Positions 19,787 to 49,391 of a DNA stretch of 51,277 nt are shown one piece after another. The notes beneath the pieces are model-generated. The model saw nothing but the letters and a program-made list of their open reading frames with translations. It was not told the DNA's origin and made no database searches. The stretch's first letter is position 1, and each line of letters opens with the position of its first letter. A program made the position numbers and the translations under genes. Location: IMG/VR virus record IMGVR_UViG_2851955134_000001. One strand, 5' to 3'. This stretch comes from a virus (lineage: Duplodnaviria > Heunggongvirae > Uroviricota > Caudoviricetes).

Positions 19787-21292
19787 TCATGGCATGGCCA
19801 TGAGCATTTTCACGTCCGCATCACCGTCTGCTGACGTCTGTGGCACGCCACCCTGTACCGCTGCCGGTGAATGGTTCGCCATGAAATGTTCAAACATGGC
19901 GGTTGTGGATGCAGAGACCGGTTCTGCCTTACCTGATCCCGCAGCCAGCACAGCCCGGGCGTTCTCCACGGTCATTCCCGGGCAGGCAGCCAGCTGTTCA
20001 GCCTGCGCCTCAGCCCCTTTTGCCTCATCCAGGGCCATGATCTGATCACGGAGTGATGGTCCGGCATCCGCCTGCGGTGAAGCTGCCAGGATCGGGCGGG
20101 CTTTTTCCACCGTCATCTCCGGCATCGCCGCCAGCGTTGCCGCCAGTTGTTCACGACCTTTCGCCTCTTCACACGCCATAATGCGATCGGCTTCACTCTG
20201 CGCGGATGCCACCGGCTGCTGTGGTGCCGCCGCGGCCAGGATCTCCCGGGCCTGTTCAACACTCATGCCCTGTTGTCCCGCCAGCATCGTGGCAAGCTGT
20301 TCACGTCCTTTCGCTTCCTTACTCGTCAGGATCCCCATCACTCGCTGGTTCTCCTGCGCGGCGGCTTCCGTTGCAGTTAATTGCGGCATAGTGCCTCCTG
20401 TATCATGTGTGTACAGCGCCGTGGTCATCACACTGATGGCATCCGACGCATTGACTAATTCATCCGCCAGCCCGGCCTCAATGCCGGACTGACCTTCAAA
20501 AACGGCGGCCTCTGTTCCCGTGACCACATCCACAGACAGCCCGGTATACATCGCCACTTTTTCGGCAAACATCCGGTGTGCCGCATCAATGCGCTGCTGC
20601 ATGTCCTGACGCACCTCTTCCGGTAAGGCTTCAAACTGATTGCCATCCACCTTGTGCGCCCCGGCATAAATCAGCGTGATATCCACACCGGCCTGCGCCA
20701 GATGACCGGCATAGCTGAGATGGCTCATCATCACGCCAATGGAGCCGATACGGGATGTCTGGGTAACCAGCCGTCGGGAGCAGGCCGACGCCAGCAGCAT
20801 GGCTGCAGAACAGGCCGTGTCATTGCACAGTGCCCAGACCGGCTTCTGCTGACGGAGGCGGTAAATCATGTCAGCGCAGTCAAACGCGCCTGCGGCCTGC
20901 CCGCCCGGACTGTCAATGTCCAGCAGTACGCCCCGGACAGCGGTGTCCGCCATTGCCTGCTGAAGACAGGCGACAATGCCGTCATAGCCTGTCATTCCGG
21001 AAAATGGCCGCATACCACCCAGCCGGTGCACCAGCATGCCGGTCACCGGCAGTACAGCAATACCGTTCACCACCCGGTAAACACGGGCCGGTCGTTTACC
21101 TCCGGCCATGTACTCGTCCGTTTCAGCCAGCATTCCGGGAGCATCAAGCTGTACCTGCTGTTGTGGTACCGAAAGACTTGCTGCCCCCATCTCGCGCCCG
21201 AGCGCGCAAAAGAAAACCCGCGCATAGGCGGGCTCCAGAAGCAGCGGTTCATTGAATGCTGCGGCAATAATGTGTGAAAGATTACGTCTCAC
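19787..21292 (-). CDS. C: head maturation protease / scaffold C (with nested Nu3-type frame)
   Basis: ...AAFNEPLLLEPAYARVFFCAL... matches recalled lambda gpC; GTG start overlapping the end of B. Confidence 0.85.
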   Translation of the reverse strand: MRRNLSHIIAAAFNEPLLLEPAYARVFFCALGREMGAASLSVPQQQVQLDAPGMLAETDEYMAGGKRPARVYRVVNGIAVLPVTGMLVHRLGGMRPFSGMTGYDGIVACLQQAMADTAVRGVLLDIDSPGGQAAGAFDCADMIYRLRQQKPVWALCNDTACSAAMLLASACSRRLVTQTSRIGSIGVMMSHLSYAGHLAQAGVDITLIYAGAHKVDGNQFEALPEEVRQDMQQRIDAAHRMFAEKVAMYTGLSVDVVTGTEAAVFEGQSGIEAGLADELVNASDAISVMTTALYTHDTGGTMPQLTATEAAAQENQRVMGILTSKEAKGREQLATMLAGQQGMSVEQAREILAAAAPQQPVASAQSEADRIMACEEAKGREQLAATLAAMPEMTVEKARPILAASPQADAGPSLRDQIMALDEAKGAEAQAEQLAACPGMTVENARAVLAAGSGKAEPVSASTTAMFEHFMANHSPAAVQGGVPQTSADGDADVKMLMAMP

Positions 21293-31711: not shown

Positions 31712-32764
31712 TTATTTCCCCACCAGCTCGTTTATCTCTTTCACTGTCTGATTAAACCGCTCTGACTCAAGCTCAACACCTAAGGCCCGACGCCCCAGCG
31801 CCATTGCTGCTTTTATTGTGGAACCGGATCCCATAAAAAAATCAGCAACCAGATCACCTGGTCGACTACTGGCATTGATTATTTGCCTGAGCATATCCGC
31901 CGGTTTCTCACACGGATGTTTACCCGTGTAGAACTGAACGGGTTTATGCATCCAGACATCGGTATAAGGCACGGAGACTGATACGGAAAAATAGCGCCGG
32001 AGAGATTTAAACTCATCCAGCAATTCAGAATATTTGCGATTCAGTGAATCATAAGATGCCACCAGCTGGTGGTGTGGTTGTTCCAGTTGTTGTTCCTGAA
32101 ACTTCTCTGCCGCTATACGGGAAAACAGTGCCTGTAACTTCCGATAGTCAGCCTCATTCGGCAACTGCCACTGACTGGCACCAAACCAGTGGGAAACCAT
32201 ATTTTTCTTACCTGTGGCTTCGGCAATTTGTTTTGCCGTTATACCCAGTTCGGCACGAGCATCCCTGAAATACGAAATCAGCGGTGCCATTATGTGCTGT
32301 TTGAGTTCCCTTTCTTTTGCTGCATAGCCGTCACTTTTGCCGCGATATGGCCCCTGGTAATGTTCAGCAAACAGAACGCGCTCTGTGGCAGGAAAATATG
32401 CGCGCAGACTTTCTTTATTGCACCCGTTCCATCGTCCGGACGGCTTCGCCCAGATAATGTGGTTCAGCACATTAAAGCGTTCACGCATCATGATTTCGGT
32501 ATCAGATGCCAGACGATGACCGCAGAACAGGTAAAGGCTTCCGGCAGGTTTTAACACCCGCCAGAACTGCGCCAGACACTGATCCAGCCATTTCAGGTAA
32601 TCATCATCGCCCTTCCACTGGTTATCCCAGCCTTCGTGTTTCACTTTAAAGTATGGCGGGTCTGTGACAATCAGATCGACAGAGTTTTCCGGTAAGGTCT
32701 GGATAAATTCCAGGCAATCAGCGTTGATTAACTCACAACTGGATATTTTTACAGTATTAGCCAT
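31712..32764 (-). CDS. DNA methyltransferase (N6-adenine/N4-cytosine family, DPPY motif)
   Basis: DPPY at residues ~35-38 and a C-terminal FxGxG-type AdoMet motif (DFFMGSGST); 350 aa. Confidence 0.8.
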
Positions 32765-32914
32765 AGATCAATAAGCGCTTCTCTGATAGGCTCATACCGC
32801 TTTTGCGCAAAGCAGATGGGCCTGAGGTTTGCTTGTGACCCCAACGCATGAGCAGATGGCTGGCAGGTGCCGCTAACACCCACCAGCCGCCCATTACCAC
32901 AAATTAAAAAGCCT

Positions 32915-33136
32915 TCACTGCGGAAGGCGTCTGTAACAACCGAACTGATAATCTGCCAGGCCCGCCATAACAAGCTGGGTCAGTATTAACTGGCAGCATT
33001 CGCGTGAAAGGTAAGTATTCTGCGCAATCTCCCCGACGGTCGCCGGTTCGGTGACGCTTAATTCATTAAGCACCACTCTGGCGGTTTCTGTCATATCTTG
33101 CTGTTTTAGCATGTCTTTTTCCCTTCTGGTTAACAT
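32915..33136 (-). CDS. small winged-helix-like protein (start uncertain)
   Basis: 73 aa from the internal ATG at 33136 (the track ORF starts at a TTG); HTH-like TVGEIAQNTYLSRECCQLILTQL. Confidence 0.35.
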   Translation of the reverse strand: MLTRREKDMLKQQDMTETARVVLNELSVTEPATVGEIAQNTYLSRECCQLILTQLVMAGLADYQFGCYRRLPQ

Positions 33137-33233
33137 GACATACCAATAACTCTTGTCTAAAAAGCCAGCAAGCTGAAAGACCTGTATTCGCAACCACCAG
33201 CGCGTTTAACGTCCTGTGCTGTTTTTCGGACAC

Positions 33234-33258
33234 AAAAAAACCCGCACGGCGGCGGGTT
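33234..33258 (-). terminator. intrinsic terminator (tR'-like) downstream of the late promoter
   Basis: Minus-strand hairpin ACCCGC-CGCCGT-GCGGGT followed by seven T residues. Confidence 0.65.
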
Positions 33259-33305
33259 GTAAAAAATCTTTTAACGTCAGGTATAAAACGCCCATCGTTA
33301 GTGCG

Positions 33306-33333
33306 AATTTACCACAGATTCGGGAAAAATCAA
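33306..33333 (-). promoter_or_regulatory. candidate late promoter pR' (-35 TTGATT, 16-bp spacer, -10 TAAATT)
   Basis: Sigma70-like hexamers on the minus strand directly downstream of the Q-like gene and ~50 nt upstream of the terminator. Confidence 0.4.
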
Positions 33334-33338
33334 CAACA

Positions 33339-34160
33339 CTATCGCGTTACCCTCTTCAACTGCCGCTCCGCCCATGACTCTTCAATGTCAAACCGAACCA
33401 CCAGCGTATCGTAAAAACGCTTCACTGATTTTTTCCACGTATCAAGAGTGATAGCGCTCGTCACTTTGCATATGGCATTAAACGCCTCTGTTGACGGTAA
33501 TCTTTCATAGCCACGACCACCACAACGCTGGCAGTCTCTGATAACAGGCATACCACGTTTTACCGACTCTTCACGATGAATGGCGACACCACGCCCACGG
33601 CAATCATTACAGGCGGTGGAGACCTCACCCTTTCCCCCGCATTCAGGACAGGCAACTTTTACCACTTCCCGGACTTTTTTCCATTCTTCCCAGTAAGACG
33701 GATACACACCCTTTGTACACTTTGCCCATACCGGCGGTTTACCATCCGGATACTGGACCTTGTTTGTAAAAACTACGCTTTCAATAAATTTTTTCCCACC
33801 GCAACAAGGGCACTGTTTTTTACTCGCTGCACTACGGGCATAATCCTCAAAAGCGTACGAAGCCATAATGCGCATCACTGTCGGTTTTATTTCTGCCGGA
33901 AGTTTTCTCAACGCCGCCACGCGATCGCACCGACTGAGTGCATAATCTGCCAGTAATTCTGTTGCCCGCGTTCTGTCATTCATACTGATGCCCATTTTCC
34001 CCAGGAACGCAGAAAATCCCATCTCAGCCCGGTTTTGTGTCATACCCTGCGCAGCCATCACATCAGTGATGCTCAGCGCATCTTTTGACGTCGAGACGGA
34101 TGCATCAGTCAGGCCTGGCGATTTTGGGGAATAGTATTTCGGTAAATCTTCCAGTTTCAT
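33339..34160 (-). CDS. putative late antiterminator Q with DnaJ-like CxxCxGxG zinc-finger repeats
   Basis: Positioned between rusA and the pR'/tR' signals; contains CPCCGGKK, CPECGGKG, CNDCRGRG and CQRCGGRG motifs. Confidence 0.5.
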   Translation of the reverse strand: MKLEDLPKYYSPKSPGLTDASVSTSKDALSITDVMAAQGMTQNRAEMGFSAFLGKMGISMNDRTRATELLADYALSRCDRVAALRKLPAEIKPTVMRIMASYAFEDYARSAASKKQCPCCGGKKFIESVVFTNKVQYPDGKPPVWAKCTKGVYPSYWEEWKKVREVVKVACPECGGKGEVSTACNDCRGRGVAIHREESVKRGMPVIRDCQRCGGRGYERLPSTEAFNAICKVTSAITLDTWKKSVKRFYDTLVVRFDIEESWAERQLKRVTR

Positions 34161-36592: not shown

Positions 36593-36748
36593 TTACTCCT
36601 CAGGTTCGTAAGCTGTGAAGACAGCGACCTCCGTCTGGCCGGTTCGGATTCGTACCTCGCAGAGGTCTTTCCTCGTTACCAGTGCCGTCACTATGACGGT
36701 TAAACAGATGACGATCAGGGCGATTAACATCGCCTTTTGCTGCTTCAT
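36593..36748 (-). CDS. hok: Hok/Gef-family type I toxin
   Basis: 51-aa MKQQKAMLIALIVICLTVIVTALVTRKDLCEVRIRTGQTEVAVFTAYEPEE recognised as Hok family. Confidence 0.85.
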   Translation of the reverse strand: MKQQKAMLIALIVICLTVIVTALVTRKDLCEVRIRTGQTEVAVFTAYEPEE

Positions 36749-36984
36749 AGCCTGCTTCTCCTTGCCTTTCGGCGCGTAAGAGGCTAACCTACGTTTGTGA
36801 AGCATAGATTGGGCCTCAGATTAATGTTAAGCGTCTTGCAGGACGCGTAATGTTAACTGGGGCTTTTATCTATCTGCCGTTGGTGTTCATGCCCGAGGCA
36901 GATAGCCTCAAGCACCCGCAGCAATTCTACTTAACTCACGTCACCTCGCCAATATAAAATCAATCAGAAAGGTGCCCCATAAAA

Positions 36985-41325: not shown

Positions 41326-41361
41326 TACCCACAGGTAAACAAAAGTCAATACCCTTGGGTT
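41326..41361. promoter_or_regulatory. oR-like operator pair between divergent cro-like and repressor genes
   Basis: Half-palindromes tacccacaggta (41326-41337) and tacccttgggtt (41350-41361), related to the perfect TACCCATGGGTA sites downstream of the repressor gene. Confidence 0.5.
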
Positions 41362-41396
41362 GTTTACCTTGCGGTAATCGCATCTATTATTTACCT

Positions 41397-41816
41397 ATGG
41401 ACAAATATGAATTTAGACGACAACAACTCATCAAAATTCGTGATGAGAAATGCGATGGTAAAGCGGTTAACGTGGCCAGAAAGATCGGTCGCGAGCCTTC
41501 TTATGTATCAAGAATGTTGTACCCAGAGGGGAAAAAAGGAAAAAAACGGATCGCTGATGATATGGTGGAGATTATAGAAGAGTCCTTTGGGTTACCCCGG
41601 GGATGGATGGATGGTATCGTTTCATCATCAACGAACACAGCCTCCAATTATGAAACAAGGGTTCTAACGCCACGACAACGTATTTTTTTAGATCTCTTAG
41701 ACGAACTGCCTGAAAGTGAAGCGGATAACTTATTAAAAACTCTTGAAGAGAAAAAACAGTATTACAATATGATCTACGAAGAAATCCGTAAAAAGAAAGC
41801 ACAAAACGCATCATAA
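41397..41816 (+). CDS. CI-type prophage repressor (short RacR-like form without peptidase domain)
   Basis: ATG at 41397; HTH around AVNVARKIGREPSYVSRML; divergent from the cro-like gene and flanked by operator palindromes. Confidence 0.6.
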   Translation: MDKYEFRRQQLIKIRDEKCDGKAVNVARKIGREPSYVSRMLYPEGKKGKKRIADDMVEIIEESFGLPRGWMDGIVSSSTNTASNYETRVLTPRQRIFLDLLDELPESEADNLLKTLEEKKQYYNMIYEEIRKKKAQNAS

Positions 41817-41859: not shown

Positions 41860-41906
41860 TACCCATGGGTATTTACTTTTTGGATACCCATGGGTATCCT
41901 TTTTTT
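41860..41906 (+). promoter_or_regulatory. oL-like operators (two perfect TACCCATGGGTA palindromes); the second forms a hairpin plus T7 that can also act as a terminator
   Basis: tacccatgggta at 41860-41871 and within ggatacccatgggtatcc at 41882-41899, followed by ttttttt at 41900-41906. Confidence 0.55.
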
Positions 41907-42397: not shown

Positions 42398-42616
42398 ATG
42401 CAGAAACGAGAACCCGTCATCATCGCGCCAGACTATACCGATGATGAACTTTATGAGTGGATGCGCCAGAAAATTAATGCAGCGCAGGATCTGAAATGGG
42501 CCAATGAAGCCAGGGCTAAGCAGGCTGAAAATCTGTCCGCTCTGGAGCAGGATATCACCAATCTGGAAAAAGCAGCGGCATTAAGCATTGCCAGAATGAT
42601 TACATACCCGCGTTAA
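42398..42616 (+). CDS. small early protein (RacC-like)
   Basis: ATG at 42398 with GAGGA RBS; 72 aa. Confidence 0.5.
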   Translation: MQKREPVIIAPDYTDDELYEWMRQKINAAQDLKWANEARAKQAENLSALEQDITNLEKAAALSIARMITYPR

Positions 42617-43500
42617 TAGCTAACCAACGAAGCTAAGGTTGGTAATTAAGGAGTTCTCCACGGGTGAGGTGGAGTACGTGCGCCGGACACGGGTGAGCAT
42701 CCGGCACTGACAGTTTACTGAAAGGATATTTCCCTGAAAAGTCAGACCATAACGCGAAAGCGCACGGCGAGGTAGCTGGTTCATAGATAGCCTGTCGTTA
42801 AATTTTCGTCGACCGTGCGCTTCCGGTTGTGGCAACCCGCGAAATGGTGCGGCGGTAAGTATGGCGGGGTTATTTCTTCCCCGTTGAGGACACCGGGTTG
42901 TCAGGTTGACCATGCGCCTGAGTGACAACCCCGCTGCAACGCCATCTGTTATCAATTTTCTGGTGACGTTTGGCGGTATCAGTTTTACTCCGTGACTGCT
43001 CTGCCGCCCTTTTTAAAGTGAATTTTGTGATGTGGTGAATGCGGCTGATCGCACGTGGAACAGTTAAAACCAAAAACAGTGTTATGGGTGGATTCTCTGT
43101 ATCCGGCGTTAATTGTTAACTGGTTAACGTCACCTGGAGGCACCCTGGAGGCACCAGGCACCGCATCAACAAAGTTCACTTCGGTGATGAAAGGTAAGAG
43201 AAAATGTTGAATGTAGCTATTGAAAACCAGTACGGGTGGAATTATAGTGCACCTGCACCTCATAAACCGGGTGCCGGGCGTGGAAACCCGAAGTCAAACG
43301 TAGCGCACAACCGCGCTCAGGCGGTTTTTTTATGCGTGAAGCACAGCCACATTCAGATTATGGTGGGGCGTGCAGGGCAGCCGCAAGGCTGGCCGGGTTC
43401 TACGTTGACCGGTATTTCCACCCCTGTACGTCTCACCACCATTATGGTCGTGGAAAGCCTCGGTGGTGAGTTATCAATACTCAACGTGGAGGCTGCCATT
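42617..43500 (+). other. ~880-bp ORF-free, hairpin-rich segment inside the early-left operon (candidate structured RNA / regulatory leader)
   Basis: No plus-strand ORF of 60 aa or more; multiple stable stems, e.g. gggttgtca...tgacaaccc, gcgcacgg...ccgtgcgc, cgggg-ttatttctt-ccccg. Confidence 0.4.
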
Positions 43501-44055
43501 ATGGCTACTACCCTTACCCTTTCTCACCCTGACGTAACCATTGAAAATGGTCGCGCTGTCACTACGTCTGTTGCGATCGCGGAATTCTTTGGCAAGCGTC
43601 ACGACAATGTTATCCAAAAAATAAAATTACTGGACTGCTCCGCTGAGTTCACTGCCCTTAATTTTAAGGCGAGCGAATACACCGACTCAACAGGACGCAA
43701 ACTCCCTATGTACCAAATCACCAAAAACGGCTTCGTTTTCCTTGTGATGGGCTTCACGGGCAAAAAGGCCGCTGCATTCAAGGAAGCCTACATTGCCGAG
43801 TTCGACCGCATGGAGGAAGAACTGCGCCGGAATAACACCACACCCGCTGACAAAATAATCCCGGGTGATGGCCGCACCCTGGTTATCCGCTTCGACGAAC
43901 ACGGCTACATCAAATTCACCGAAACCGTTCCTGATGGCGCACTGGTCTGTACTCTGGATACTTTCCGTTTTTATCTGGAAAAGCAGGGATGGACTCTCAT
44001 AAACCGGGGCGCAATTAAAAATATGACCGTCGAGCAGTTGCTGAGTATTAAATAG
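43501..44055 (+). CDS. Rha-family phage regulatory protein
   Basis: ATG at 43501 with GTGGAGG RBS; motif ENGRAVTTSVAIAEFFGKRHDNVIQKI typical of Rha N-terminal domain. Confidence 0.65.
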   Translation: MATTLTLSHPDVTIENGRAVTTSVAIAEFFGKRHDNVIQKIKLLDCSAEFTALNFKASEYTDSTGRKLPMYQITKNGFVFLVMGFTGKKAAAFKEAYIAEFDRMEEELRRNNTTPADKIIPGDGRTLVIRFDEHGYIKFTETVPDGALVCTLDTFRFYLEKQGWTLINRGAIKNMTVEQLLSIK

Positions 44056-48234: not shown

Positions 48235-48324
48235 TGGCGGAGAGAGGGGGATTTGAACCCCCGGTGGAGTTGCCCCCACTCCGGTTTTCGAGACCGGTCC
48301 GTTCAGCCGCTCCGGCATCTCTCC
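48235..48324 (-). tRNA. serU: tRNA-Ser (anticodon CGA)
   Basis: Reverse complement reads GGAGAGATGCCGGAGCGGCTGAACGGACCGGTCTCGAAAACCGG...GGTTCAAATCCCCCTCTCTCCGCCA with long variable arm and CGA anticodon; K-12 serU neighbours mtfA. Confidence 0.9.
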
Positions 48325-49315: not shown

Positions 49316-49391
49316 TCCTCTGTAGTTCAGTCGGTAGAACGGCGGACTGTTAATCCGTATGTCACTGGTTCGAGTCCAGTCAGAGGAGCCA
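49316..49391 (+). tRNA. asnT: tRNA-Asn (anticodon GTT)
   Basis: TCCTCTGTAGTTCAGTCGGTAGAACGGCGGACTGTTAATCCGT...GGTTCGAGTCCAGTCAGAGGAGCCA, 76 nt. Confidence 0.9.

What the first reader, a model, noticed from the sequence alone, without database searches (positions are those of the whole stretch)
42617..43500. ~880-bp ORF-free, stem-rich segment inside the early-left operon: candidate structured RNA or antitermination/processing leader
Between the RacC-like gene and the Rha-like gene there is no plus-strand ORF of 60 aa or more, which is unusual in a tightly packed phage genome. The segment is GC-rich with many stable stems (9-bp gggttgtca/tgacaaccc, 8-bp gcgcacgg/ccgtgcgc, cgggg/ccccg, ccgga/tccgg). 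No N-like antiterminator gene is evident downstream of oL, so an RNA-based mechanism (put-like antitermination, sRNA, or a decayed kil/sieB-type gene) is plausible. I cannot tell which.
Basis: partly seen in the sequence, partly recalled or inferred. Interest (0 to 1): 0.65.

Follow-up and report, generated by a model that had tools for sequence, protein, structure and literature searches.

The report
Phage small-RNA cluster with unclassified RNA fold
The "empty" 880 bases hold three already-known phage regulatory RNAs (DicF, IsrK and a C4-type antisense RNA) plus a conserved pseudoknotted RNA fold upstream of DicF that matches no Rfam family and has no known function.

Summary
The segment is real non-coding DNA, but most of it is already explained. 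Rfam places three families on the + strand above their gathering scores: DicF (42958-43009, identical to E. coli K-12), IsrK (43255-43331) and a C4-type antisense RNA (43356-43443). The left part is the ydfABC-dicF leader of a Qin-type dicB operon. From about 43169 an isrK-orf45/C4-Rha cassette, a homologue of Gifsy-1 isrK-orf45-anrP and P1 immI, replaces dicB. It has its own promoter. The C4 loop pairs with the Rha ribosome-binding site and covaries with both of its targets across three lineages.

The new item is a ~115-nt four-helix pseudoknotted fold (42826-42940) preceded by a covarying hairpin (42753-42825). It has no Rfam match. 95% of cells are paired across 52 distinct copies, against 37-56% in slid controls. 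It occurs once per element, always in the sense orientation. It lies in lambdoid early-left leaders, including K-12 Qin, and just after the C1-controlled ban promoter of P1/P7. An intrinsic terminator almost always follows. It is not homologous to HK022 put or to lambda nut. Its function is unresolved; a role in antitermination or RNA processing is inference only.

The parts
42398..42616 (+). ydfC, the last small gene of ydfABC and the left boundary of the segment (context)
   Evidence: PGAP annotates 'protein YdfC' in the 100% identical record NZ_CP029741. It matches phrog_1744 at 134.6 bits.
42656..42745 (+). Leader hairpins A (42656-42661/42669-42674), B (42678-42687/42700-42707) and C (42707-42713/42740-42745)
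   Evidence: Coordinates are. In the alignment of 22 Qin-type leaders, hairpin A is replaced wholesale by a different self-complementary sequence (CCACACG/CGTGTGG). Stem B is conserved while its loop varies.
42753..42825 (+). Hairpin D: a long stem (CGCGAAAGCGCACGGCGA / TCGACCGTGCGCTTCCG) with a variable ~40-nt loop, directly abutting the fold
   Evidence: Inverted repeat I1. Compensatory variants are GCGCATTCC/GGAATGCGC (L083, L071), CACAGCG/CGTCTGTG (L103, L129) and, by eye, TGAGGGCAT/GTGCTCTCA in the cdtI type. This shows that the boxA-like string GTGCTCT/GTGCGCTT is the 3' strand of a stem.
42826..42940 (+). Unclassified four-helix pseudoknotted RNA fold. P1 42826-42833/42933-42940; P2 42837-42841/42848-42852; P3 42854-42856/42892-42894; P4 42865-42869/42879-42883; P5 42895-42905/42917-42931; pseudoknot 42859-42864 with the P5 loop 42910-42915
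   Evidence: On the MAFFT alignment of 52 distinct copies, 94.1% of cells are paired and 16 pairs change on both sides, with 0/500 shuffles as high. On the model-fitted alignment the values are 95.0% and 18 pairs, against 37-56% and 2-8 pairs in slid controls. RNAalifold independently recovers P1-P5. The covariance model scores 145.9 bits here. No Rfam match at E<=5.
42941..42957 (+). A/U-rich single-stranded linker (GCCAUCUGUUAUCAAUU) ending at the DicF 5' end; the presumed RNase E cleavage region
   Evidence: This is inference. The DicF 5' end is made by RNase E in K-12 (PMC5069750), and DicF here is identical to K-12.
42958..43014 (+). DicF sRNA with its intrinsic terminator
   Evidence: Rfam RF00039 scores 76.7 bits (gathering 48) at 42958-43009. 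58/58 bases are identical to K-12 Qin dicF plus its T-run. Terminator hairpin dG is -15.9 kcal/mol.
43015..43168 (+). Remnant of the dicF-dicB intergenic leader. It includes the PGAP 'DicB' pseudogene fragment (43079-43144) and a private 11-nt tandem duplication (43133-43154)
   Evidence: Collinear with K-12 Qin up to about 43168. Pseudogene call. Duplication.
43220..43248 (+). Predicted sigma-70 promoter of isrK (TTGAAA-17-TATAGT), placing the start near 43255
   Evidence: 10 of 12 consensus matches, the best in the 3-kb scan. ST64B has TTGATT/TACACT at the aligned positions. The Gifsy-1 isrK promoter drives the downstream operon (PMC4825925).
43255..43331 (+). IsrK sRNA (two hairpins plus an intrinsic terminator). 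It carries the upstream C4 target pair b1 (43280-43287) and a1 (43294-43303)
   Evidence: Rfam RF01394 scores 67.1 bits (gathering 50). Terminator at 43309-43326 plus a T-run. A sub-threshold c4-a1b1 match lies at 43242-43294 (25.9 bits, gathering 46.7). Complementarity.
43332..43469 (+). orf45 counterpart (45 codons, a different frame from Rha), overlapping the C4 RNA
   Evidence: One search lists a 45-aa ATG ORF at exactly this place. Gifsy-1 has a 45-aa ORF between isrK and anrP whose translation is coupled to anrP (PMC4825925). No PHROG match.
43356..43443 (+). C4-type antisense RNA (equivalent to Salmonella STnc1160). Loop 43399-43408; single-stranded junction 43415-43421; 3' ...ACCACCA
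   Evidence: Rfam RF01695 scores 78.6 bits (gathering 45) over the full model. MFE is -47.3 kcal/mol in the family fold.
43446..43492 (+). Downstream C4 target pair: b2 (43450-43457) and a2 (43481-43492). a2 contains the Rha Shine-Dalgarno sequence GGAGG (43488-43492)
   Evidence: The loop-a2 duplex is -18.1 kcal/mol over 43480-43495. Only 5 of 500 shuffled downstream targets and 1 of 500 shuffled upstream targets pair with the loop plus junction as well as the real ones. Loop, a1 and a2 covary in three lineages.
43501..44055 (+). Rha-family regulator (AnrP/antirepressor-like), the right boundary and the regulated gene
   Evidence: Pfam Phage_pRha scores 109.3 bits. phrog_995 is matched at profile positions 101-306 of 307.

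Best explanation
The segment is the untranslated middle of a Qin-type early-left (dicB) operon, with a second regulatory-RNA cassette inserted into it.

(1) 42617-42957 is the structured leader downstream of ydfABC. It consists of three small hairpins, a long covarying hairpin and a ~115-nt pseudoknotted four-helix fold.

(2) 42958-43014 is DicF. By homology it is released from the operon transcript by RNase E at its 5' end and by its own intrinsic terminator at its 3' end. It then acts with Hfq on ftsZ and other mRNAs.

(3) 43015-43168 is what remains of the dicF-dicB leader. dicB itself has been replaced.

(4) From about 43169 there is an isrK-orf45/C4-rha cassette with its own promoter.

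Inferred mechanism for the cassette, from Gifsy-1 and P1. Most transcripts stop at the IsrK terminator and give the 77-nt IsrK. Read-through gives an isrK-orf45-rha mRNA from which the C4-type RNA is processed. The C4 loop and junction pair with b2/a2 and cover the Rha ribosome-binding site, keeping the antirepressor-like protein off. IsrK carries the matching b1/a1 sites. My inference is that it competes for C4 or for the same strand, which would fit the observation that IsrK supplied in trans switches on translation in Gifsy-1.

Shown: the identities, structures, complementarities and covariation. Inferred: every step of processing and regulation, and any function of the new fold.
For: Family matches. 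Three Rfam families score above gathering on the + strand. DicF is 58/58 identical to K-12.

Operon context. The ydfA/ydfB/ydfC-dicF order and collinearity with K-12 Qin hold up to about 43168. [quoted passage not shown]

Cassette. It has a promoter (10/12) and a terminator, a 45-codon ORF and a Rha-family gene. This matches the Gifsy-1 isrK-orf45-anrP layout, where STnc1160 is processed from the read-through transcript (PMC4825925).

C4 targeting. The C4 loop/junction is complementary to both target pairs, and a2 covers the Shine-Dalgarno sequence. Three-way covariation of loop, a1 and a2 is seen in the window, in E. coli FDAARGOS_1281 and in Salmonella phage ST64B.

Fold stability. The cassette RNA region folds far better than shuffles, z = -4.19.

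New fold. Covariation is shown.
Against: No expression data were available, so transcript ends, processing and regulation are all by homology.

The Rha frame is open from ATG 43204 in three lineages. That stretch matches Pfam Phage_ASH (53.5 bits), and PGAP annotates the 283-aa protein. So 43204-43500 could also be translated from read-through transcripts.

Unlike P1, there is no icd-like gene between C4 and the regulated gene. Unlike Gifsy-1, the cassette does not sit downstream of a Q-like gene, so the circuit output may differ.

The fold at 42826-42940 has no assigned function, which leaves part of the segment unexplained.
Confidence: 0.85

Rival explanations
1. The new fold (42753-42940) is a cis-acting RNA that makes RNA polymerase resistant to terminators, a functional analogue of HK022 put or Bacillus EAR (the eps-associated antitermination RNA). 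It would let early-left transcription pass the DicF and IsrK terminators and reach rha, kil, the exonuclease gene and, in related phages, xis and int. This is a sub-hypothesis about one part of the segment, and it is the reader's idea.
For: The fold is always sense to a repressor-controlled early operon and occurs once per element. An intrinsic terminator follows 35-120 nt downstream in nearly all of roughly 180 copies, although the terminator sequences differ between lambdoid and P1 types. In P1/P7 it starts about 15 nt after the predicted start of the C1-controlled ban promoters, with a strong terminator before the tRNA genes and ban. Active phages Tritos and mEp460 carry cI-ydfABC-fold-DicF-dicB-exoVIII-xis-int with no annotated N. 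No N-like family was found in the window genes tested. N-less lambdoid phages are currently only guessed to use put-like RNA (PMC12315714).
Against: There is no sequence or structure homology to put. There is no second copy in the rightward operon, whereas HK022 has both putL and putR. In the window it lies ~1 kb from the promoter, after three translated genes. The DicF terminator may simply be leaky by design. Nothing here tests binding to RNA polymerase.
Confidence: 0.3
2. The new fold is a processing and stability scaffold. It positions the single-stranded A/U linker for RNase E so that the downstream sRNA is released with a defined 5' end, and/or it protects the upstream ydfABC fragment from 3' exonucleases.
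For: It sits 17 nt upstream of the RNase E-generated DicF 5' end. In most lambdoid copies it is followed by a DicF-type 'seed plus terminator' unit, and in P1 by another short single-stranded stretch plus terminator.
Against: RNase E guidance does not normally need an invariant pseudoknotted junction. The fold is conserved where the downstream RNA is unrelated (P1) or where no terminator follows within 170 nt (L071, L093). In P1 there is no upstream mRNA to protect.
Confidence: 0.25
3. 43204-43500 is protein-coding. The real product would be a 283-aa Ash-Rha fusion starting at ATG 43204, and the RNA-family matches would be incidental.
For: The frame is open in the window, in L003 and in ST64B. 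Pfam Phage_ASH scores 53.5 bits on residues 14-108. PGAP annotates it. phrog_995 profiles include about 100 N-terminal residues. ATG 43204 aligns with the position of the dicB start.
Against: Substitutions show no codon-position bias: 7/8/8 against L003 and 23/25/28 against ST64B. The 60 aligned bases of the Rha gene give 4/5/12, which is too few to serve as a firm control. Conserved blocks coincide with RNA helices. The C4 loop covaries with both targets. Three covariance models score above gathering. A strong promoter lies inside the frame. In Gifsy-1, translation of the short orf45 in another frame is what was shown experimentally. Dual use is not excluded.
Confidence: 0.12
4. The segment is mainly a decayed, frameshifted remnant of a protein gene (kil, sieB or dicB type).
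For: PGAP calls a 22-codon DicB fragment at window 43079-43144. dicB is missing here but intact downstream of the same cassette in L003 and L019.
Against: The fragment lies in what is the untranslated dicF-dicB leader in K-12. The long minus-strand ORFs have no Pfam match. In the alignment the P4 hairpin loop differs in length by steps that are not multiples of three, and paired positions change in a compensatory way. The leader is intact and 97-98% identical in thousands of E. coli genomes.
Confidence: 0.04

Closest known systems
dicBF operon of the Qin cryptic prophage of E. coli K-12 (ydfA-ydfB-ydfC-dicF-dicB-ydfD)
   Same: Same gene order. DicF is identical (58/58). The leader is 97.7% identical, and the same pseudoknotted fold scores 146.9 bits in K-12.
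   Different: dicB and ydfD are replaced from about 43169 by the isrK-orf45/C4-rha cassette followed by kil. Only 61 of 5426 E. coli genomes have a place covering at least 80% of the 1171-base query that spans the junction.
Gifsy-1 isrK-orf45-anrP-isrJ locus of Salmonella (PMC4825925)
   Same: An IsrK family match with a promoter and terminator, a 45-codon ORF over a stable processed RNA (STnc1160, the C4 type), and then a Rha/antirepressor-like gene.
   Different: No isrJ match in the window. The upstream neighbour is DicF/ydfC, not a Q-like antQ. Here the complementary target a2 lies directly on the Rha ribosome-binding site.
immI region of phages P1/P7 (c4-icd-ant) and the P4 CI RNA/seqA/seqC system
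   Same: An antisense RNA embedded in the leader of the operon it controls. It has two recognition elements complementary to one target pair upstream and one downstream, the downstream pair covering a ribosome-binding site. Specificity lies in a few loop bases that covary with the targets (the P1 mechanism is from my own knowledge of Citron & Schuster 1990; the P4 analogy is stated in PMC4825925).
   Different: No icd-type coupling gene. The target is the regulator's own Shine-Dalgarno sequence, and the regulated gene is a Rha-family protein. RNase P processing was not tested.
HK022 putL/putR antiterminator RNA (PMC9378689)
   Same: For the new fold only. It is a structured RNA on the sense strand of an early, repressor-controlled operon, upstream of intrinsic terminators, in phages without a recognisable N.
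   Different: put is ~70 nt with two stem-loops. This fold is ~115 nt with four helices plus a pseudoknot, preceded by a long hairpin. The covariance model finds no match in the HK022 put regions. There is one copy per phage, not two.
'dicF-like region' feature in the P1 GenBank records AF234172/AF234173
   Same: It overlaps the 3' half of the fold (L004 2553-2654, against the model match at 2480-2617), so the sequence similarity was noticed by the P1 annotators.
   Different: The record gives no structure or function. The P1 similarity is to the sequence upstream of dicF, not to DicF itself. After the fold the P1 sequence is a different terminator.

Membership tests
DicF sRNA (Rfam RF00039) | Covariance-model score at or above the gathering threshold | tested here: met
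   76.7 bits against 48, over the full model 1-52.
DicF sRNA (Rfam RF00039) | Location in the untranslated region after ydfABC of a dicB-type operon, ending in an intrinsic terminator | tested here: met
   ydfA/B/C are annotated upstream. Identical to K-12 dicF including the T-run. Terminator hairpin dG is -15.9 kcal/mol.
DicF sRNA (Rfam RF00039) | RNase E-dependent 5' end, Hfq binding and repression of ftsZ | not testable with these tools
   Known for K-12 (PMC5069750). Here it rests on sequence identity only.
IsrK sRNA (Rfam RF01394) / Gifsy-1 isrK locus | Covariance-model score at or above the gathering threshold | tested here: met
   67.1 bits against 50, over the full model 1-77.
IsrK sRNA (Rfam RF01394) / Gifsy-1 isrK locus | Own promoter and a leaky intrinsic terminator, followed by a ~45-codon ORF and an antirepressor-like gene | tested here: met
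   Promoter match 10/12 at 43220-43248 and terminator at 43309-43326. 45-aa ORF at 43332-43469. Rha family gene. Leakiness was not tested.
IsrK sRNA (Rfam RF01394) / Gifsy-1 isrK locus | Trans-activation of orf45/anrP translation by short IsrK, with AntQ induction as the output | not testable with these tools
   Experimental in Gifsy-1. The immediate upstream neighbour here is DicF/ydfC, not a Q-like gene.
C4 antisense RNA (Rfam RF01695; P1/P7 immI type) | Covariance-model score at or above the gathering threshold, with the family fold | tested here: met
   78.6 bits against 45, over the full model 1-87. The MFE structure equals the family structure.
C4 antisense RNA (Rfam RF01695; P1/P7 immI type) | Two recognition elements complementary to an upstream (a1/b1) and a downstream (a2/b2) target pair, the latter over a ribosome-binding site | tested here: met
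   Searches show the complementarity. Only 1 of 500 shuffled upstream targets and 5 of 500 shuffled downstream targets pair as well. a2 (43481-43492) includes GGAGG. Loop, a1 and a2 covary.
C4 antisense RNA (Rfam RF01695; P1/P7 immI type) | An icd-type ORF between c4 and ant whose translation is needed for ant transcription | tested here: not met
   Only 57 nt separate the C4 3' end from the Rha ATG. The only small ORF is orf45, which overlaps C4 itself.
C4 antisense RNA (Rfam RF01695; P1/P7 immI type) | Release from the leader by RNase P | not testable with these tools
   The 3' end reads ...CACCACCA (43434-43441), compatible with RNase P processing but not a test of it.
HK022 put antiterminator RNA | About 70 nt, two stem-loops, with sequence and structure similarity to putL/putR | tested here: not met
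   Model R1 finds nothing at E<=10 in HK022 21000-33500, which includes putL and putR. The fold has four helices plus a pseudoknot. Rfam has no put family, so no reciprocal model test was possible.
HK022 put antiterminator RNA | Sense strand of early operons, upstream of terminators | tested here: met
HK022 put antiterminator RNA | Copies in both the leftward and the rightward early operons | tested here: not met
   Exactly one model match per locus, always on the early-left strand.
HK022 put antiterminator RNA | Binding to the zinc-binding domain of the RNA polymerase beta' subunit and factor-independent read-through | not testable with these tools
   Needs in-vitro transcription and rpoC mutants (PMC9378689).
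lambda-type nut site with N protein | A single-stranded boxA followed by a short boxB hairpin, with an N gene downstream | tested here: not met
   The boxA-like GTGCTCT/GTGCGCTT string is the 3' strand of covarying hairpin D. No N-like family was found among the tested proteins or in the annotation of related phages.
Riboswitch / terminator-antiterminator attenuator | A conserved alternative pairing between the aptamer 3' strand and the terminator 5' strand | tested here: inconclusive
   By eye, CCGCCA in the fold can pair with UGGCGG of the DicF-type terminator in some types, but not in the window/K-12 (CCGCTG) or the cdtI type (CCACCA). I made no systematic count.
Any Rfam 15 family (for the fold 42753-42940) | A covariance-model match | tested here: not met
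   No match overlaps 42617-42957 at E<=5 with permissive filters.

The most novel reading that the evidence does not exclude
The covarying pseudoknotted fold upstream of DicF would be a new class of cis-acting RNA that modifies RNA polymerase for processive antitermination, a functional analogue of put or EAR with an unrelated architecture. The fold is at window 42753-42940. It is also present in E. coli K-12 Qin, in most E. coli genomes and in the ban-operon leader of P1/P7. On this reading it is the missing early antitermination device of N-less lambdoid phages, and it also sets how much DicF and how much downstream mRNA are made.
Probability: 0.27. Interest if true: 0.8.

Novelty: new variant of a known kind. 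Interest (0 to 1): 0.5.

Why it matters
Most of the segment is a textbook case of how phages pack regulatory RNAs into what looks like an empty gap. Annotation pipelines then paper over the gap with a dubious 283-aa ORF and a 'DicB' pseudogene.

Two things go beyond that. First, an IsrK/C4 antisense switch has been dropped into the dicBF operon in place of dicB. This places two unrelated prophage sRNA systems in one transcription unit and gives a natural three-lineage covariation series for the C4 specificity loop.

Second, the dicBF leader carries a strongly covarying pseudoknotted RNA. That leader is present in E. coli K-12, and a match to the 404-base leader-plus-DicF query is found in about four fifths of complete E. 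coli genomes. The RNA also sits at the 5' end of the P1 ban operon, and no family or function is recorded for it in the resources I could search. If it controls termination or sRNA maturation, it would bear on how DicF and DicB toxicity is gated. It would also bear on how N-less lambdoid phages run their early-left operons, which a recent paper still treats as a guess (PMC12315714).

Tried and rejected
(1) nut/boxA reading. The string GTGCTCT(C/T)/GTGCGCTT just 5' of the fold looked like boxA. I rejected this because it pairs with an upstream complement that covaries, forming hairpin D.

(2) A long-range helix enclosing fold, DicF and terminator (note). For the cdtI/Ayreon type this is wrong. 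The downstream AGAGAAG string is the 5' arm of its own 14-bp hairpin. For the Qin type a downstream complement exists only in some copies.

(3) Homology to put. There is no model match. The short shared strings I noticed between put and the fold or IsrK were not pursued, because nothing in Rfam represents put.

(4) Riboswitch-like terminator/antiterminator switching. The candidate pairing is not conserved between types.

(5) Coding potential. The minus-strand ORFs of 111 and 92 aa have no Pfam match. Small + ORFs hit only PHROGs of unknown function, which are probably other people's over-annotation.

(6) Literature. I found no paper in the held library that links dicF with covariation, and none that prints the invariant strings. 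Faubladier & Bouche 1994 and Lobocka et al. 2004, the two papers most likely to mention the conserved sequence, are not held. Prior description therefore cannot be excluded.

(7) Weak hits. A sub-threshold STnc100 match at 43021-43173 (17.4 bits against 47, E = 0.46) was ignored as chance.

(8) Unused capacity. The metagenome scan, the structure-prediction tools and the protein homology searches were not needed.
Full report
OBSERVATION. The window matches E. coli AR_0085 at 100% identity. From 42617 to 43203 there is no + strand ORF of 60 aa or more. However, the Rha reading frame is open back to ATG 43204, so the '880-bp ORF-free' statement fails mechanically for the last 297 bases, and PGAP annotates that 283-aa version. 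GC content is 0.485-0.525, only slightly above its surroundings. The upstream gene is ydfC. The Rha gene most plausibly starts at ATG 43501, with GGAGG at 43488-43492. Single-sequence folding energies are unremarkable for the left part: z = -1.65 for 42617-42957, -1.07 for 42750-42945 and -2.11 for 43010-43254. They are clearly low for 43230-43520, z = -4.19. Stem counting therefore does not establish anything. Homology and covariation do.

WHAT IS THERE. A scan of all Rfam 15 models puts three families above their gathering scores on the + strand inside the segment:
- DicF, 42958-43009, 76.7 bits (gathering 48)
- IsrK, 43255-43331, 67.1 bits (gathering 50)
- C4 antisense RNA, 43356-43443, 78.6 bits (gathering 45)
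There is also a sub-threshold match to the C4 target motif a1b1 at 43242-43294.

LEFT HALF: THE dicBF LEADER. The genes upstream are ydfA, ydfB and ydfC. They are preceded by a DicA-like repressor gene and a divergent cro-like gene. The segment really is inside the early-left operon of a Qin-type lambdoid prophage. The stretch from ydfC to about 43168 is collinear with E. coli K-12 Qin at 97.7% identity, and DicF with its T-run is 58/58 identical. [quoted passage not shown] DicF is released from it by RNase E at the 5' end, and by its own terminator (53 nt) or by RNase III (72 nt) at the 3' end (PMC5069750).

A CONSERVED FOLD UPSTREAM OF DicF. Sensitive DNA searches showed that about 100 nt of the leader recur without DicF. 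They are found in phages cdtI, Ayreon, 2H10, Stx2c phages, Salmonella phage F1055 and an Actinobacillus phage. They are also found in P1 and P7, where the GenBank records carry an unexplained 'dicF-like region' feature. Pattern scans added copies from Citrobacter, Trabulsiella, Erwinia, Izhakiella and many IMG/VR contigs.

An alignment of 52 distinct copies supports a four-helix junction. In window coordinates:
- P1 42826-42833/42933-42940
- P2 42837-42841/42848-42852
- P3 42854-42856/42892-42894
- P4 42865-42869/42879-42883
- P5 42895-42905/42917-42931
- a pseudoknot between 42859-42864 (GUAUGG) and the P5 loop 42910-42915 (CCAUGC)

On the MAFFT alignment 94.1% of cells form pairs, 16 pairs change on both sides, and no shuffle out of 500 reaches these values. 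On the model-fitted alignment the values are 95.0% and 18 pairs. Versions with the 3' partner slid by one to three columns give 34-56% and 2-8 pairs. RNAalifold recovers P1-P5 on its own.

Examples of compensatory change are:
- GGGTTGT/ACAACCC changing to GGGTAAC/GTTACCC, GAGCTAC/GTAGCTC and GGATCAC/GTGATCC in P5
- U:A changing to C:G in P3 in the P7-like copies
- U:A, U:G and C:G at the variable pseudoknot pair, with C:G in P1

Many G:U pairs mark the + strand as the functional one. In the alignment P4 loop lengths differ by steps that are not multiples of three, which argues against coding.

Directly upstream, a long hairpin (42753-42825) covaries as well. The fourth is the conserved leader hairpin B.

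A covariance model built from the alignment scores 145.9 bits in the window and 146.9 bits in K-12 Qin. It finds exactly one copy per locus, always on the early-left strand. No Rfam model touches the fold at E<=5.

CONTEXT OF THE FOLD. In Ayreon and cdtI it lies about 290 nt downstream of the leftward promoter that follows cI. It sits in a ~580-nt leader with no credible gene. In P1 and P7 it begins about 15 nt after the predicted start of the C1-controlled ban promoters. In nearly all of roughly 180 copies an intrinsic terminator follows 35-120 nt downstream. The terminator is DicF-type in lambdoids and an unrelated one in P1-likes. Two IMG/VR contigs lack a terminator within 170 nt and instead continue into further structured RNA. 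A match to the 404-base query (the leader from 42617 through DicF) is found in 4436 of 5426 complete E. coli genomes.

MIDDLE. 43015-43168 is the remnant of the dicF-dicB leader. PGAP labels 43079-43144 a DicB pseudogene. The window has a private 11-nt tandem duplication at 43133-43154. Homology with Qin ends near 43168. ATG 43204 sits where the dicB start sits in K-12. dicB and ydfD are absent here. The same cassette is followed by an intact dicB in two other E. coli strains. The junction is rare: only 61 genomes have a place covering at least 80% of the 1171-base query.

RIGHT HALF: AN IsrK/C4 SWITCH ON A Rha-FAMILY GENE. A promoter match (TTGAAA-17-TATAGT, 10/12) at 43220-43248 places the start at the first base of the IsrK match. 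The IsrK terminator is at 43309-43326. A 45-codon ORF (43332-43469) in another frame overlaps the C4 RNA. The regulated gene is a Rha-family protein.

This is the layout of Gifsy-1 isrK-orf45-anrP. In Gifsy-1, read-through of the IsrK terminator gives a translationally silent mRNA, short IsrK activates it in trans through orf45, and a stable RNA (STnc1160) is processed from the orf45 region. The authors compare the system with P4 seqA/CI/seqC (PMC4825925).

The C4 loop (43399-43408) is complementary to a2 (43481-43492), which contains the Rha Shine-Dalgarno sequence, and to a1 (43294-43303) inside IsrK. The C4 junction (43415-43421) is complementary to b2 (43450-43457) and b1 (43280-43287). 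Only 1 of 500 shuffled upstream targets and 5 of 500 shuffled downstream targets pair with the loop plus junction as well as the real ones.

Across the window, E. coli FDAARGOS_1281 and Salmonella phage ST64B, the three elements change together:
- loop: CTACGTTGA / CTTGGTTGA / CTATGTTGA
- a2: TCAACGTGG / TCAACCAAG / TCAACATAG
- a1: TCAAACGTAG / TCAATCAAG / TCAATATAG
This is the signature of an immunity-specificity determinant, as in P1 versus P7 c4 (the latter from my own knowledge).

I infer that C4 occludes the Rha ribosome-binding site and that IsrK, which carries the matching sites, acts as a competitor. No step of this was tested here.

THE 283-aa ORF. Its N-terminal extension matches Pfam Phage_ASH (53.5 bits), and the frame stays open in three lineages. 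Substitutions there show no codon-position bias: 7/8/8 and 23/25/28. The 60 aligned bases of the Rha gene give 4/5/12, which is too small a sample for a firm control. The conserved blocks are the RNA helices. I read the extension as a translated RNA locus, with dual use not excluded.

HOW THE FOLD MIGHT WORK. Nothing computational settles this.

I rejected a nut/boxA reading, because the boxA-like string is one strand of hairpin D. I rejected put homology, because there is no model match in HK022 and the architecture is different. A conserved terminator/antiterminator switch was not seen.

The anatomy fits a put- or EAR-like processive antiterminator (about 0.3): a sense-strand element in early repressor-controlled operons, directly upstream of terminators that must be read through. 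Active phages such as Tritos and mEp460 have no annotated N, and their xis and int lie downstream.

A scaffold for RNase E processing or sRNA stability is about as likely (0.25).

An independent protein-binding RNA is also possible. In P1, promoter-fold-terminator looks like a ~190-nt transcription unit.

That N-less lambdoid phages 'may' use put-like RNA is still stated as a guess in a 2025 paper (PMC12315714).

VERDICT.

The DicF, IsrK and C4 parts are new copies of known families in an unusual juxtaposition. The pseudoknotted fold is, as far as Rfam 15 and the held literature show, an undescribed RNA motif of unknown function. It is present even in E. coli K-12. Two old papers that might mention its sequence conservation could not be read.

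Noticed in passing
window 36743-36917 (-): A sok antitoxin RNA (Rfam RF01794, 111.2 bits against gathering 59), so a hok/sok-type module sits in the prophage.
   Followed up: no
window 48235-48324 (-) and 49316-49391 (+): tRNA-Ser(cga) and tRNA-Asn(gtt) genes near the right end of the window. This may be the prophage boundary or an attachment region.
   Followed up: no
window 43243-43527 (residues 14-108 of the 283-aa ORF 43204-44055): Pfam PF10554 (Phage_ASH) and the N-terminal ~100 positions of phrog_995 correspond to the translation of the isrK + C4 RNA locus. Substitutions there show no codon-position bias, so the 'Ash' protein family may be largely a translated RNA gene. PGAP annotates the long ORF.
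   Followed up: partly
window 43133-43154: A perfect 11-nt tandem duplication, CCTGGAGGCAC x2, that is absent from K-12, FDAARGOS_1281 and strain 1303. It duplicates a GGAGG in the old dicB leader.
   Followed up: partly
window 42962-42970 and 43126-43134: The DicF 5' seed GGTGACGTT is perfectly complementary to AACGTCACC in the dicF-dicB leader, next to GGAGG. The leader site (43126-43134) lies in columns that are invariant in all four aligned lineages. A second long-range pair, 43016-43028/43169-43181, might be the RNase III site that gives 72-nt DicF.
   Followed up: no
window 41860-41871 and 41885-41896: Two copies of the palindrome TACCCATGGGTA lie between the DicA-like repressor gene (41355-41816) and ydfA. 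They are probably leftward operators, although the consensus scan reported them as a terminator.
   Followed up: no
L008, L014, L015, L016, L018 (Trabulsiella, Erwinia, Izhakiella, Salmonella phage F1055), 60-120 nt downstream of the fold: In these copies the DicF-like terminator stem GGCGGTACC/GGTACCGCC encloses a long loop. The loop carries AGGAGG, a spacer and an ATG that runs into the 3' arm. This looks like a tiny leader ORF inside a terminator.
   Followed up: no
L071 4550-5550 and L093 (IMG/VR contigs): The fold is embedded in a ~900-nt ORF-poor structured stretch. A second large hairpin domain (AAGAGCACTAC...GTAGTGTTCTT, L071 5197-5317) follows directly, and no terminator follows within 170 nt.
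   Followed up: partly
L143 (phage Ayreon) 3173-3262: A perfect 14-bp hairpin, ACAAAACAGAGAAG...CTTCTCTGTTTTGT, encloses a conserved ~60-nt block (CACCGGACGACGGGCTCATAACCC...) just after the DicF-like terminator. It is conserved across cdtI-type phages and may be another RNA element in the same leader.
   Followed up: no
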